From Mizuhopecten yessoensis (lineage: Eukaryota), in the NCBI RefSeq assembly GCF_002113885.1, contig NW_018404352.1, forward strand, positions 763,371 to 827,370: 64,000 nt of DNA, written 5' to 3'. Made by a program: the position numbers. Shown here piece by piece: positions 47,301 to 53,300 of this stretch (the stretch's first letter is position 1; every line of letters begins with the position of its first letter).

Positions 47301-50300
47301 ATGAGCTTAAACCTCGTATTGGCCCAATTGAAATCTTGTACATCAATTCTTTAATGTTTTCGCTGCGCTAGCGGTAGATGGTTATGTTTTTAAAAAAGTC
47401 TCACTGTAGAGTCACATCTTACATGAAGTAGTCATGTGATGTTTTGGTGTACTAAAGTCACGTGACCTGTGCATAATGTTTTTCCATGCTGACATTTTGA
47501 AAATCTCCTTAAAAATCAGTTACCCTCCTCCTCCCCTAATTTATATCCACCTTTATGTACTATTGTGTAAAAATGCAATTGGTGCACATCTTTTTTTTTT
47601 GTAATTGTTTTATTTTTCACTACATAAAGGTCTTCACACACATTCTCTTTCACACACAAAAAAATGTATATGGATGTGTACATGCATCATCATCATCATA
47701 ACTACAATACACCTCACCCATAAACAATCTTCATCCTCATCATCATTATGAAAATATAGTTACCAATGCATCAGTACCTATCTCGCATAATAAACATCAT
47801 CATCCTCATTATCATCATCATCATTATAATCTTCATTGCATTAATACCTCTCACACATAAACAATCATCTACCCTCATAATCATCTTCATGAAAATATAA
47901 TTACAAATGCATCAATGCATGTCTTACACTATAAACATCATCATCATCATCATTGCCTCAATATGCTTCACATAATACACAATTATCAGTATCATCATTA
48001 TCATCATTGCATTACTATCTCTCACACAATAACAATCATCAACCCTCATCATCATCATCGTCATCATTATGAAATTATAACTACCAATGTCTCAATATTG
48101 TTGCACATCTTCATTTTATATTTTGTTTCATTTGTTGTACATCTTTTAATTACAATAACTTCAGATGGGTGACGTTTACTTTGAAGCAAGCCCCATCATT
48201 TTTGGTTCTTTGAACACCTTATTATAAAAATAACACGAAGATGTATACATATGTTCGATTTCTGGGATTTAGAAATAAATGTTCTTTTTCGACAACTTAA
48301 GTTTTTGATAATTTATCGACAAAAAACATAGCAGAGTATACCCTGTGTGTGCTGTTGGGTTTAGTGCAGACTTAACACGATAATATAAGTAATGGTGCGG
48401 CCATTCTATTATCCACCAGACACGCATCAGGTGCATCATTAGGGTACTTAATCAATGTTCGGGGTGAGCAAAAATATTTATTCTGAAAAAATATGCAGAC
48501 AAAAAGAATGTACGTATAACGATATCGGATTTCCGATATCAAGCTCTTAGATCCATATAACCTCTTATTAAATCACCAACAGGTAACAATCAATAAAAAA
48601 GAAGATATTCCTTTCAAATATTCGTAGCACACACACATAACACCTGTACATTGCCATCTTTATTACTCGCAGGCAAACTCAATATTCACTTAAACTACGT
48701 TATGGAAGCACCACCTCACTGTTTACGTCACCACATTAAAGCTTATAACTAATTATACAATTCGTGATTCAAAATAAAATAATGGTACTACAAGATGTAA
48801 TAATTTGCTGTCTTCGTTTTCATATTTACTCTATTTTCAAGACATTGTTATTGTGTTACATGTATGCACAAAACAAAAAACACAGAAAATACCACTATTA
48901 AAGCCAATGATGCATTTTCATAGCGAAAACAAACCGGAAAAGATTATAAATGATGAAGACAAGATAACAAATAATATAATAGAAACAAGTTTAACTATTT
49001 TATGATCGTAATTTACCAACATTGCCAGCAACAAAAACCCATTTAAATATACAAGCATAGATTTACAAAGAGAGGCCGGCCACACCATAAAAACAAGCCT
49101 CAACAAATCTTAAAAATATGCAAGTATGAAAAGTTGTGAAATACCCACTTGACGAGGAAGAGCGGGACGTACAATATAATTTCACCCTTGAGTACACACT
49201 TGACTGATTTCAGTGAAACATTAAAAAGGGTGCGATCATCAATGAATAGGTTTGTTTATCAAGTAAGGTCATGAACAATGTAACTGCATATGAGTTTGAG
49301 TAGAAATAGCTTATATTGCATCCGCTTTATTCTGAATGGAGTGGCCCATTAAACTGACTGTATTTCCCGTATGTTTTTGCTGAAAGCTTGAAATACTTGA
49401 GTAAACTATCGTGCTTATACATATAATCAATTGTAAATAAGTTTTGAATAGAAAATCATACCATTTATTTGGTGTTGTTTATTGTATTATTGCAAAACTG
49501 ACCGATTAATCGGTAACTCGGTCGGGAGATTTTGACTAAACTTCGTTCGGTTTGACAATCTTTGTATTTACCTGTCATCTTTTAGTATGAATGGTGGTCG
49601 TTAATATATCCACGTTGTCAACTGCAGCTGTACAGTGATCTATTTTGACAAACGTATATAGTGTTTTCTTGATACTACAAAGAAACACAACACATGGCCT
49701 GTTAAAACTCGTTATAGGATTTCCCACTGACGATATATGTAAGGTGAAAACAGAGACAGATTGTCTCAGTAAACCATACAAAGTCGGTGTTCATTCATTC
49801 AAATATTGTCGCATTTGTTCATATTTGCATTACATGTACAGTACCACCACTACAGCCGATCCAAACATGTCCGCACATGTCGACACACACAGCCAACGGA
49901 TCTGTTACTGCATGTTTCTTGTCAAGGAGACACTTGGCCTTTCTTTCATTCCCCGATATGACGTATACCTGGTTAGTGTTATAGTCTGGTACAAATATTC
50001 TGTCATATTCATCACATGCTATATCGCTCTGCAACGTCTCTGTTATCTTCTGACCATTGTCCAGTTCCCCACTCCACTTGTGCATGATCTGGTCATATTT
50101 GTTGATGACAATCATTTCGTTACAATTCAAATAATCAGAGCCAGTGGTGACAGCTATATATCCTGTTGTCAAATTAACTATACTAAGCCCATCTCCTCCA
50201 CAGGATATTTGTCTGATCCTATCCCCAGACATGTTCAGTACCAGCATTGTTGGGGTGAGAGTAGTGACGAACACCTCGTCAGTGTCACTGATACTGATAC

Positions 50301-53300
50301 CTGAGGCGTTTAACGGACTGATGTCAGCAAAATCAGTCACTCGTCTGTCCTCAGATATAATGTGTATCAGCGAAGAATTCTTATACTCTGTGACCAGAAG
50401 TACTTTCTCATTGGACACGGTTAGACGCCACGGGTTAAAGTCAAGCTTGACAGACTCTGTGACGTTGCCTTCTTTGTTGACTTTGACCAATTCATTAGAT
50501 TCATATACCGACATCCATACTTGATTATCGTCAGTAGGACATATTGAGTTGATTTGTGTCCGCTGAGGCATTTGGAATGTAGAAATCATTTGAACCTGTT
50601 GACAGTCAACTTCCTTCTTTTCATACTGCACGTCTTCATTCTTCAATACTTGTAAACGCCCAAACACTGTCTTCAATTGATCTTTGTTACGTTCACCAGG
50701 GACGAAGTGATGTTGGCGAGGTACCACGCTCTTTTTATTTACATCATACAGCGGTTTGGTGGTTTTCATTCTTCTAGTCATTTCAAATAAGGATGCACTA
50801 GATTTCGTTTCTGTGGCTTGTTCCACATCTTCCATCAGTTGTTTGATCTCTTTGACGTTTTTTTCGTGAGATTGACAATCTCGAGTGTGGGATATTTCTT
50901 CTTCTTCAACCAAGGACGATAACTCGACCAAAACCGAGTCCGCTATGAAATTAATTTCTTCTTTCAGTTTAAATCTTTGCGTTTGTACTGATTGTCGGAT
51001 GACTTCCACGTTCTCTTCGAACGATTTGCTCACCTCATGACGCTTTGATATATTGTCATTAAAATGGTCTAAATTGGAGTCCAACGTTATCAATAGCTCT
51101 CGAAGGAACTGTTTTTGTACGTCAATTTCCAGTTCAATGTTTTTGAAAACGTGTTGGCTATGTTTCTCGGTAAAACAAGTTGCGCACATCATTATTTCAC
51201 AATCACAACAATACAGGTCACATGATTTACCGTGGTGTGTCTTACATACCTCCGGGAGAAATGTCTGATTTTGTTTGATCGCCCTTGTAATTGGTACAAC
51301 GGCATCATTTCGTGTCTTTCTCGCGCGTTGGTGACTCTCTTTACAGCCGTCACATAAAGCCTCTTGACAGTCATTACAGTACCAGTTAACGTCCTGTATG
51401 TTTTCACACCAAGCACACGGATCAGGCACGTGCACCAGAGCACTCCGGGTGGCTAGTTCACTTGACATCTTTGTTAGATTATACTATATATTTATCGAAC
51501 AAACAACTTTCTAACCCGTCAAAGTTTCCTTTGATTTTAAACTGAACGTCGATTACTTGTCCTTTGCTTTCACTGAACTCATGTGATAAATAAAAATAGC
51601 AGTCATGCCTATTGGCGTGTATAAGGCCTTTTCGTTGTAATATAAAGTCAAAGGTTCAACGAGGTGCCCGGATCTGGGCATATATAATACACAACAAATC
51701 GTGAATTGCGAACTGTAAGGTATGCTTTATATTTAGATATTGAACGATTTCGACAAGTTTGAAAAGTGGATATATTTTGTCATTGCGATCAAAACAGTGA
51801 CTTTTTTAACAACTTTTCGATTTAAGGGATAGTTTTGGGGAATTCTGTAATGCCTCAGTTACAGTTATAAATTGCTTGATCGACTGATGTTTATTTTTAA
51901 TAGCCGCATAGACTATCGATATCAACCACCAACACCCTCTCCCCAAGTTCCCCCCTTTTTGTTTCATTCTATTTTTTTTATATTTAGAACTTGTGCAGAA
52001 CTTGTATAAATGTTTTCATATAGAATCTTACCCACTGAGTTTGTTCTTATCTAATGTCCCAGCGTAGGCTAAATTGATGTAACGGTTATATATGGTCATG
52101 CATGCGAGTTAAAATGGCGATTCCAAGTTAGAAATACCTTACAGTTATCGTGTTGGACGTGGTAAACGCATATGGTTCTGTACCAAACCAGGTATGGAAA
52201 ACTATGGAGCATCACTATGTCCAAGATCATATTATCAACTTTATTGTCAGCCTTTTATTGGGGATACATTTGAGATTCAGCTTTGATCAAGTTATAATAA
52301 ATCTGGATAAACATAAAGATTGGAATCATTACAGGGTACATACGATCGATGTGGTCGATACAATTCTTGTTATTTAAAGATAGCACAACATTGTTATATA
52401 GAATGTGAAATTAAATTACTCGTCAAGGATTTTTTTACTTTGTCCTAATAGACTTTTCAACTGATTCAGCTTCATATGAAAAGCAAAAATAAATTGGCCA
52501 GAAGAGGGTATGAGTTTGTTCCTATAGAAATGCCTACAGCATAACCGGACACACAATGATATTGTCAGTGAAGAACTCAGTCATTCTCACAATTTCATAC
52601 GCTCTTCTCAAAAACCGGTGGTGTATTGAGGACAAGCTCAGCCTATTTATTTGGTAGATTCCGTTTATTTCCGGCGTTTTAATGATTCATGTTATCTTCA
52701 TCAGTATGTCACAGGCGGCTGTTGTTGAGTTTCTATACGGAAGTAGATCGCGATGAAATTCTTGCTCTCTGTAATGTGTTTCCTGTTATCTCGGTATGCC
52801 GGATTATTGCAACAACTATGTATTTTGTATGAAATTTTGTTGTCAAAATATTAGAGATATATCGTTTTTTCATACATTTCGCTGCATCCCATCTTAAGAG
52901 ACATCCAATATAGGACCTCATGCAGAATCGGCGGTTTTTCCTAGGTTAAATATTGATCTGATCGCGGTAAGCTTCCCTTTCAAAGGTCGTCAGGTTTGAA
53001 TGTGTCGGCAATATGGATAGACTTTCAATGACGGATAGAAATCGTGCGATTGCGATGCTACAATCTGGGGCAGCAGAACATCATGTGTCGCATGTGATAA
53101 TTTTAACAAGGTTTACGATTAAATGTCTTTTGAAGTGTTATTGACGAGTATGACATGTCAACCAACTCCCTGGAGCCGGACGTCGACGTGAAATGGCGCC
53201 ATGTCAGGACCGCTTCATTCTTATTCCATGCATAGCGTCGAAACAGAGCGACGTTTACCGTTTTCCATGAGCAAACGCTGTGTTTAAGAAGTTAACAGAA

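What the first reader, a model, noticed from the sequence alone, without database searches (positions are those of the whole stretch)
49819..51468. The only intact TRIM-like copy is an A/C chimera with a crossover mapped to 15 bp
Seen: copy B matches A at every diagnostic site from the promoter through B-box1 (MSSELATRSALV, RNDAVV, QTFLP; 51255 = G as in A). It matches C from 51239 onward (CKTH, IMMCATC, coiled coil, propeller). The switch lies in 51240-51254, at the start of B-box2. Both flanking parents carry frameshifts, but the chimera does not. Inference: unequal crossing-over between A and C made the 6226-bp duplication and put C's propeller under A's promoter, a promoter/domain-shuffling route for diversifying an expanded, putatively immune gene family.
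Basis: partly seen in the sequence, partly recalled or inferred. Interest (0 to 1): 0.65.

Follow-up and report, generated by a model that had tools for sequence, protein, structure and literature searches.

The report
Recombinant middle gene of a tandem duplication
Three neighbouring copies of a mollusc-type B-box/propeller gene include a middle copy that is a clean hybrid of its two neighbours, the textbook product of unequal crossing-over, so it is a tidy but ordinary example of how such gene clusters grow.

Summary
Three intronless, minus-strand copies of a RING-less B-box1/B-box2/coiled-coil/NHL-type-propeller gene lie in tandem: A 43598-45242, B 49819-51468, C 56045-57695. Only B is open (549 aa).

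B is A-type at 38 of 38 informative columns 5' of position 51255. It is C-type at 330 of 336 columns 3' of 51239. The switch lies in 51240-51254.

The two 6226-bp units (45014-51239 and 51240-57466) differ at only 7 columns. This is the structure expected from homologous unequal exchange, the "anti-Lepore" type. The exchange fell inside a ~450-bp 5' tract that A and C had already homogenised (dS 0.06, against 0.47 for the rest).

New points:
- C's frameshift is derived and arose after the duplication, so B did not escape it.
- B differs from C's reading by only 6 N-terminal residues plus I370N, so coding "domain shuffling" is minimal. Only the 5' flank is swapped, and the promoter itself was not located.
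- Divergence between the units is uneven (5 of 6 events in the gene body), which is unexplained.

Without reads, an assembly artefact cannot be excluded. The absence of a gap and the private differences argue against it. An immune role was not tested. The mechanism is known, so interest is modest.

The parts
43598..45242 (-). Copy A: B-box/NHL-type gene, pseudogene by a single frameshift, otherwise open in two frames.
44892..44899 (-). A's lesion: the 4-mer TCGA occurs twice in tandem where B and C have one 4-mer (+4, frameshift). It lies 3' of the exchange point, so it cannot be dated relative to the duplication.
45014..51239 (.). Duplication unit 1 (6226 bp): A's 5' part, spacer 1, and the C-type body of B.
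   Evidence: It differs from unit 2 at 7 columns.
45243..49818 (.). Spacer 1. It has no gene. It holds a short reverse-transcriptase-like ORF with no Pfam match and ATC-rich microsatellites that are identical in spacer 2.
49819..51468 (-). Copy B: intact 549-aa ORF. Approximate DNA ranges, derived by me from residue ranges and not from a call:
- B-box1, residues 16-54 (51307-51423)
- B-box2, about residues 73-112 (51133-51252)
- helical/coiled-coil region, about residues 113-270
- NHL-type propeller, about residues 286-549 (49822-50613)
51240..51254 (-). Exchange interval (15 bp, codons 72-77, includes Cys75 of B-box2). It is flanked by a C-type site at 51239 and an A-type site at 51255. The 17-mer 51239-51255 is unique in the window.
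51133..51580 (-). The 5' tract in which A and C are 95-98 % identical in the CDS and 82 % identical in the ~110 bp upstream. It was homogenised earlier and is the substrate of the exchange. It ends at the B-box2/coiled-coil border. The equivalent ranges, which I derived by the offset, are A about 44907-45354 and C about 57360-57808.
50535..50654 (-). Island of high A/C identity: perfect blocks of 50 and 51 bp, and dS 0.10 for residues 277-316. It lies in the linker before the propeller and is probably an older conversion patch.
51240..57466 (.). Duplication unit 2 (6227 bp): the A-type 5' part of B, spacer 2, and the body of C.
56045..57695 (-). Copy C: parental gene with its own 5' part and an unrelated 5' flank beyond about 57808. 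It is a pseudogene by a single net +1 lesion.
57171..57179 (-). C's lesion: one extra base in a short A run (+ strand) plus a substitution 5 bp away. It is derived in C, because both A and B lack it, so it is younger than the duplication.

Best explanation
A and C are old tandem paralogs of an intronless, RING-less B-box1/B-box2/coiled-coil/NHL-type-propeller gene of the kind expanded in molluscs. Their first ~370 coding bases and ~110 upstream bases were homogenised later by gene conversion or an earlier exchange. Misaligned pairing of A with C across this tract, followed by a homologous crossover resolved within 51240-51254, produced a chromosome carrying a 6226-bp direct duplication. Its junction gene is B. 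B has A's 5' flank and codons 1 to about 75, and C's codons from about 76 to 549. This is the duplication ('anti-Lepore') product of non-allelic homologous recombination.

Afterwards C, now redundant with B in its coding body, acquired a frameshift. A's frameshift cannot be dated.

Shown: the mosaic pattern, the unit identity, the lesion polarity and the domain content. Inferred: that the event was meiotic or mitotic NAHR rather than template switching, that the assembly is right, that B is expressed from A-type regulatory DNA, and any role of the protein. By analogy, the B-boxes and coiled coil would mediate self-association and the propeller would bind a ligand or RNA. Without a RING the protein would not be an E3 ligase on its own.
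For: - Self-blastn: 43571-51571 matches 49788-57800.
- Units 45014-51239 and 51240-57466 differ at 7 of about 6227 columns.
- Site classes: 38 of 38 A-type 5' of the switch and 330 of 336 C-type 3' of it. Fisher p = 9e-48; 0 of 2000 permutations reach the observed chi-square.
- The junction is in frame and gives a 549-aa ORF.
- The exchange lies inside the only long tract of high A/C identity: dS 0.06 there against 0.47 elsewhere, with perfect blocks of 109, 37 and 46 bp around it.
- The microsatellites in the two spacers are identical.
- The two units carry private differences, so they are not one sequence written twice.
- There is no N between 32340 and the window end. False duplications are typically separated by gaps (PMC9516828, passages read).
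- The junction 17-mer is unique in the window.
- C's lesion is absent from both B and A.
- Domains: Pfam zf-B_box E = 3e-10 with 2 stretches; TRIM28 B-boxes and coiled coil E = 7e-11; propeller against the designed six-bladed Pizza6 proteins E = 2e-7, Vgb lyase 3e-4, PknD 8.5e-4.
- The nearest Atlas clusters are mollusc zf-B_box plus NHL families.
- Same pattern in globins: anti-Lepore fusion genes flanked by parents that later decay, sometimes after a prior conversion (PMC4041002, passages read).
Against: - No reads, second assembly or other individuals could be examined, so the physical existence of the three-copy arrangement is unverified.
- Divergence between the units is uneven. Five of the 6 difference events fall in the gene body, which is 22.8 % of the unit (binomial P = 0.003). 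Synonymous differences are 3 of 287 sites against 1 of 4576 non-coding bases (Fisher p = 8e-4). One recent event predicts uniform divergence.
- The window has single-base Ns and a 206-N gap elsewhere, so the assembly is not flawless.
- Only 7 of the 38 A-type markers lie in the CDS.
- Promoter, transcript and protein were not shown.
- The single-sequence AlphaFold model was useless (pLDDT 37), so the propeller call rests on sequence matches and on the Atlas's own model.
Confidence: 0.78

Rival explanations
1. Assembly artefact. The real locus is A-spacer-C, and the assembler passed through the A5'-spacer-C3' segment twice, or stitched two haplotypes at the ~450-bp A/C homology. B would then be an in-silico chimera.
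For: - The two units are 99.9 % identical, and such near-identical tandem copies are where assemblers err.
- The 7 differences could be allelic.
- The window has Ns elsewhere.
- False duplications are common in heterozygous genomes (PMC9516828, passages).
- The uneven distribution of differences is not what a clean single duplication predicts.
Against: - There is no gap anywhere in 43-58 kb, whereas false duplicates on one scaffold are mostly separated by gaps (PMC9516828).
- A and C share only 15 bp of exact identity at the junction, and at most 109 bp nearby. Identity falls to about 80 % on one side and to no homology on the other. From my general knowledge of assemblers, that is too short for a false overlap of long reads and too mismatched for a shared k-mer path at usual k.
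- An allelic pair in a mollusc would be expected to differ in the 4.6-kb spacer at more than one site (inference).
Confidence: 0.13
2. A pre-existing three-gene array in which an older middle gene was overwritten by gene conversion: its 5' part and upstream spacer from A, and its 3' part and downstream spacer from C. There would be no change of copy number.
For: - Conversion can mimic Lepore and anti-Lepore chimeras (PMC4041002, passage).
- This locus shows older conversion-like tracts: the 5' tract and the island 50535-50654.
- Uneven divergence hints at more than one event.
Against: - It needs two long tracts that together cover all 6226 bp, including 4.6 kb of non-coding spacer and its microsatellites, and that meet within 15 bp.
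- No residue of a third, older sequence is left: 0 columns where all three copies differ.
Confidence: 0.05
3. A replicative tandem duplication by template switching (fork stalling, microhomology or homeology mediated) rather than a crossover. The product would be the same.
For: The junction lies in a short 15-bp identity block between mismatches. The final structure does not distinguish the two mechanisms.
Against: The junction sits in register inside a ~450-bp tract of 95-98 % identity, which is the classic substrate for homologous exchange. There is no inserted or deleted base at the junction.
Confidence: 0.04

Closest known systems
Haemoglobin anti-Lepore and the HBB/HBD chimeric fusion genes of mammals (PMC4041002, passages read)
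   Same: - Unequal crossing-over between tandem paralogs gives a duplication whose middle gene joins the 5' part of one parent to the 3' part of the other, flanked by both parents.
- The parents later decay.
- In one lineage a prior conversion preceded the exchange, as here.
   Different: - A different gene family and phylum.
- The gene here is intronless.
- The exchanged 5' coding part is nearly identical between the parents, so the protein hardly changes.
- Fixation and expression are unknown here.
CYP11B1/CYP11B2 chimera of glucocorticoid-remediable aldosteronism (PMC8750845, abstract start seen in the listing; the promoter-swap detail is recalled)
   Same: A duplication-type unequal crossover puts the coding body of one paralog behind the 5' regulatory DNA of the other.
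   Different: There the regulatory consequence is proven and pathogenic. Here no promoter or expression data exist.
Hybrid genes in immune clusters: KIR (PMC2816608) and HERC5/6 (PMC7775381); abstract starts only, seen in the listings
   Same: Recombination between tandem paralogs creates copy-number change and hybrid genes in fast-evolving defence-related families.
   Different: Those cases have population or multi-species evidence. This is one assembly.
TRIM-NHL proteins (TRIM2, TRIM3, TRIM71, Brat) and RING-less TRIM relatives (PMC2533329, passages)
   Same: B-box1 and B-box2 followed by a helical region and a C-terminal NHL-type propeller. The Atlas structural neighbours include TRIM2-like, TRIM71 and TRIM56-named clusters.
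   Different: - No RING and no filamin domain.
- The NHL Pfam model is below its cut-off (12.6 against 20 bits).
- The TRIM2 NHL structures match at E = 1.1 only.
- The gene is intronless and tandemly arrayed.
Mollusc-expanded B-box families (PMC8382680 table row for OG708, passage) and the Atlas mollusc zf-B_box plus NHL clusters
   Same: The same domain content and length (549-577 aa). The 3 best Atlas feature hits score 0.98, and the two commonest family sets among the 30 hits (15 and 9 hits) both carry zf-B_box and NHL.

Membership tests
TRIM / RBCC family | N-terminal RING finger | tested here: not met
   Pfam at E up to 1 finds no RING model. The ORF starts 15 residues before B-box1.
TRIM / RBCC family | B-box1 and B-box2 zinc fingers in tandem | tested here: met
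   zf-B_box E = 3.2e-10 at 40.5 bits (cut-off 24.1), 2 stretches. Residues 17-112 align to both B-boxes of TRIM28, E = 7e-11. The Cys/His pattern was printed.
TRIM / RBCC family | Coiled coil after the B-boxes | tested here: inconclusive
   The alignment to TRIM28 runs on to residue 159. Long helices at 85-233 appear only in a very low-confidence model (pLDDT 37). No coiled-coil predictor was run.
TRIM-NHL (class VII) | C-terminal six-bladed NHL propeller | tested here: inconclusive
   - Pfam NHL: 12.6 bits against a cut-off of 20. Vgb_lyase: 22.6 against 50.
- PDB: designed six-bladed Pizza6 E = 2e-7 with 3 stretches, PknD 8.5e-4, TRIM2 NHL 1.1.
- The Atlas's own model aligns residues 286-549 to a 292-aa NHL cluster, TM 0.82 by that row.
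- My own model was too poor for a fold search.
TRIM-NHL (class VII) | Filamin/ABP280 domain before the NHL repeats | tested here: not met
   No filamin model in the Pfam scan.
Duplication product of non-allelic homologous recombination (anti-Lepore type) | Parental paralogs in direct orientation flank a junction gene that joins the 5' part of the downstream parent to the 3' part of the upstream parent, in register | tested here: met
   In the direction of transcription the order is C, B, A. B has A's 5' part and C's 3' part, which is the duplication product and not the deletion product.
Duplication product of non-allelic homologous recombination (anti-Lepore type) | Two units, each as long as the parent-to-parent distance, near-identical over coding and non-coding DNA | tested here: met
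   6226 and 6227 bp, 7 differing columns. The uneven spread of those differences is unexplained.
Duplication product of non-allelic homologous recombination (anti-Lepore type) | Exchange point inside a tract of high parental identity | tested here: met
   The tract has 95-98 % identity and dS 0.06. The switch lies in a 15-bp block between perfect blocks of 37 and 46 bp.
Duplication product of non-allelic homologous recombination (anti-Lepore type) | Physical proof of the arrangement (spanning reads, depth) and of the ancestral two-copy or reciprocal deletion allele | not testable with these tools
   No reads, no other assemblies and no eukaryotic genome collection were available.
Immune / antiviral TRIM-like effector | Induction by, or association with, infection; diversifying selection on the recognition domain | tested here: not met
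   Expression is not testable. A versus B/C gives omega 0.42 overall and 0.20-0.78 in 40-codon blocks, so there is no sign of positive selection at this resolution with only two lineages. The literature link concerns oyster genes annotated TRIM in general.

The most novel reading that the evidence does not exclude
The B-box cassette (about -110 to +370) is kept near-identical among neighbouring paralogs by recurrent conversion and acts as a recombination handle. Repeated exchanges at the B-box2/coiled-coil border would re-assort 5' regulatory DNA with divergent propellers and spawn fresh intact copies while older ones decay. That would be a birth-and-death engine for a mollusc recognition family, with the extra differences in the gene body coming from ongoing short conversions from paralogs elsewhere in the genome.
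Probability: 0.12. Interest if true: 0.55.

Novelty: new member of a known kind. Interest (0 to 1): 0.3.

Why it matters
If the arrangement is real, it is a base-pair-resolved snapshot of how a lineage-expanded mollusc B-box/NHL cluster gains a gene. The sequence of events is: conversion creates a homology tract, unequal exchange creates a chimeric copy, and a redundant parent then decays. That documents birth-and-death evolution and possible regulatory re-assortment in a family that oyster studies repeatedly list among infection-associated genes. It does not reveal a new mechanism. The same logic is textbook for globins, CYP11B, KIR and others. Its practical value is as a caution and a test case for copy-number calls in such families.

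Tried and rejected
- **Structure.** Structure prediction was not accepting jobs. The single-sequence job gave pLDDT 37 and pTM 0.25. That is too poor to use, so I ran no fold search and did not map divergent residues on the propeller.
- **CpG decay** as the cause of the excess differences in the gene body: rejected. None of the sites is in a CpG, and CpG observed/expected is about 0.9 in both gene and spacer.
- **Patchy heteroduplex repair** as the source of the 4 A-type columns in B's C-type part: rejected. C-type markers lie within 4-6 bp on both sides (runs), so these are changes in C.
- **Positive selection** on the propeller: not seen.
- **Other features in the window.** No further family copies. 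No Rfam family or tRNA in the window. No gene in the spacers.
- **Blade periodicity.** An ungapped self-comparison gave no clear signal.
  - Genome contigs holds prokaryotes only, and the phage, plasmid and E. coli collections are irrelevant, so none was used.
  - Family size, orthologs, other individuals and the source species therefore stayed unchecked.
- **Papers.** Supplements were not consulted. Those of PMC8382680, PMC6971885 and PMC9437489 may list the exact gene families meant.

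
Full report
**Setting.** The window is AT-rich (GC 36 %) eukaryotic DNA. It contains satellites, LINE-like and Crypton-like debris, and amino-acid-transporter exons. Its Ns lie at 9084, 16096-16301, 19650 and 32340, so none is in or near the locus. They were left as they are. The ESM Atlas places the protein of the finding among mollusc clusters. I take the window for a mollusc sequence, not human. The species was not determined.

**What is there.** Three copies of one intronless gene lie head-to-tail on the minus strand: A 43598-45242, B 49819-51468 and C 56045-57695.
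- tblastn with B finds no other copy in the window.
- B is an open 549-aa frame.
- A is broken once. The 4-mer TCGA stands twice in tandem at 44892-44899 where B and C have one 4-mer, and the frame behind it stays open to the normal stop.
- C is broken once, by a net +1 complex change at about 57171-57179, and is likewise open behind it.

**Domains of B.**
- Two B-boxes: Pfam zf-B_box E = 3e-10, 2 stretches. Residues 17-159 align to B-box1, B-box2 and the start of the coiled coil of TRIM28, E = 7e-11.
- A helical middle part.
- A C-terminal beta-propeller of the NHL kind. It matches the designed six-bladed Pizza6 proteins at E = 2e-7, Vgb lyase at 3e-4 and PknD at 8.5e-4. The Pfam NHL and Vgb_lyase models stay below their cut-offs.
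- No RING and no filamin domain.
- The Atlas holds this exact protein. Its nearest clusters are mollusc families carrying zf-B_box and NHL: the 3 best feature hits score 0.98, and the two commonest family sets among the 30 hits (15 and 9 hits) both carry them.
- My own AlphaFold run without an alignment failed (pLDDT 37), so no fold search was made.

**The chimera.** Self-blastn aligns 43571-51571 to 49788-57800. A and C match at 82 % over 1.8 kb only.
- In the pairwise alignment, the last A/B difference is at B 51239 and the first B/C difference 5' of it is at 51255.
- Within the span where all three align (B 49792-51580) there are 374 informative columns. Upstream of the switch, 38 of 38 are A-type; 7 of them lie in codons 2-72. 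Downstream, 330 of 336 are C-type, 4 are A-type and 2 are private to B.
- Fisher p = 9e-48, and 0 of 2000 permutations reach the observed maximum chi-square.
- The interval 51240-51254 covers codons 72-77 and includes the first cysteine of B-box2.

**The duplication.** Units 45014-51239 and 51240-57466 differ at 7 columns (my first notebook entry says 8, which was a miscount).
- One difference is in the spacer (46993/53219).
- The rest are in B 50360-51073: three synonymous changes (codons 132, 182, 252), I370N, and C's complex lesion.
- The spacers' ATC-rich microsatellites are identical.
- Upstream of the ATG, B equals A exactly for 1979 bp and then on through the spacer. C's flank is alignable for about 110 bp only, at 82 %.
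- In the direction of transcription the order is C, B, A, and B has A's head and C's body. That is the duplication product of an unequal exchange, not the deletion product.

**History inferred.**
- A and C are old: dS 0.47, dN 0.20, omega 0.42 for codons 117-549.
- Their first 116 codons have dS 0.06. A 120-bp island before the propeller (B 50535-50654) is also nearly identical.
- Low synonymous divergence means that conversion or an earlier exchange, not protein constraint, made these tracts.
- The 5' tract ends at the B-box2/coiled-coil border and supplied the homology for the later crossover.
- Polarity of the lesions: C's lesion lies in the segment B inherited from C, yet B and A both lack it, so it arose in C after B was made. 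A's lesion lies 3' of the exchange and cannot be dated.
- The sequence of conversion, anti-Lepore-type duplication and decay of parents is what has been described for mammalian HBB/HBD fusion genes (PMC4041002, passages read).
- The promoter-swap aspect recalls the CYP11B1/B2 chimera (PMC8750845, abstract start only; the detail is recalled).

- B's protein differs from C's reading at S2T, T7I, L11Q, A56V, T69A, P72S and I370N only. No new domain combination arises.
- What changes is the 5' flank. No promoter, transcription start or 5' UTR intron was located. A pyrimidine-rich stretch ending in AG just before the ATG, and TATA-like runs at about -30 and -80, are visible but were not tested.
- No block of the propeller has omega above 0.8.
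- The immune label rests on oyster papers that list genes annotated TRIM among infection-associated genes (PMC6971885 and PMC9437489, passages), and on a bivalve-expanded B-box orthogroup (PMC8382680, table row). None of these was tied to this gene.

**Unexplained.** Five of the 6 difference events between the units lie in the gene body, which is 22.8 % of the unit (binomial P = 0.003). Synonymous sites differ at 3 of 287, against 1 of 4576 non-coding bases (Fisher p = 8e-4). All five lie in 50360-51073. CpG decay does not explain it. Untested candidates are:
- later homogenisation of the spacer;
- short conversions from near-identical paralogs elsewhere in the genome;
- polishing with mis-mapped paralog reads;
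- an exchange between homologues.

**Rival: artefact.** It cannot be excluded without reads.
- Against it: there is no gap between the units, while false duplicates on one scaffold are mostly gap-separated (PMC9516828, passages). The units have private differences. A and C share only 15 bp of exact identity at the junction and at most 109 bp nearby, with 80 % identity or no homology beyond. That is a poor basis for a false overlap (inference).
- For it: near-identical 6-kb tandem copies are error-prone, and the uneven differences are odd.
- I put it at about 0.13. Double conversion in an older three-gene array is at about 0.05, and template switching at about 0.04.

**Verdict.** The unequal-exchange origin is well supported, conditional on the assembly. 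The functional gloss is not supported. This is a clean new instance of a known mechanism in a known kind of expanded family.

Noticed in passing
window 45014-57466: Divergence between the two duplicate units is uneven. There is 1 difference in 4576 non-coding bases, against 5 events in 714 bp of gene body (B 50360-51073). The last 540 bp of the gene has none.
   Followed up: partly
window 50535-50654 (B); same place in A and C: There is an island of near-identity between the otherwise 20-30 % diverged A and C (perfect blocks of 50 and 51 bp). It lies in the linker before the propeller and is probably an old conversion patch.
   Followed up: partly
window 13403-16095 and 16521-16668: A 31-bp satellite of about 87 copies runs straight into the 206-N gap at 16096-16301 and resumes after it. 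The gap probably sits inside one long satellite array.
   Followed up: no
window 24272-25514; 20291-21271; 6425-7236 and 8266-8556: Further tandem arrays: a 16-bp unit of about 77 copies, a 190-bp unit of about 5 copies, and a 146-bp unit of about 5.6 copies with more copies 1 kb away.
   Followed up: no
window 25619-25810 and 26713-26906: Two copies (about 90 % identical, inverted relative to each other) of a ~190-bp element that is itself palindromic. They look like MITEs and sit next to transporter exons.
   Followed up: no
window 35877-37046, minus strand: A decayed Crypton-like element. A tyrosine-recombinase piece (Pfam Phage_integrase E = 1.7e-6) and a QRICH1-type domain (E = 6e-4, below cut-off) lie in different frames.
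   Followed up: partly
window 26062-27866, 29145-29540 and 60939-62502 (also 3-383), minus strand: Exons of amino-acid transporter (Pfam Aa_trans) paralogs, 77-88 % identical in DNA, bracket the B-box/NHL cluster. This is an older, larger duplication of the neighbourhood.
   Followed up: partly
window 17858-19585, plus strand: Broken ORFs that look to me like the endonuclease and reverse transcriptase of a non-LTR retrotransposon. There was no Pfam match at E below 0.01.
   Followed up: partly
window 51469-51580 (and A, C equivalents): The ~110 bp upstream of the ATG that all three copies share contains TATA-like runs and a pyrimidine stretch ending in AG just before the ATG. The CDS exon may be preceded by a 5' UTR intron, in which case the promoter lies further up in the spacer.
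   Followed up: no
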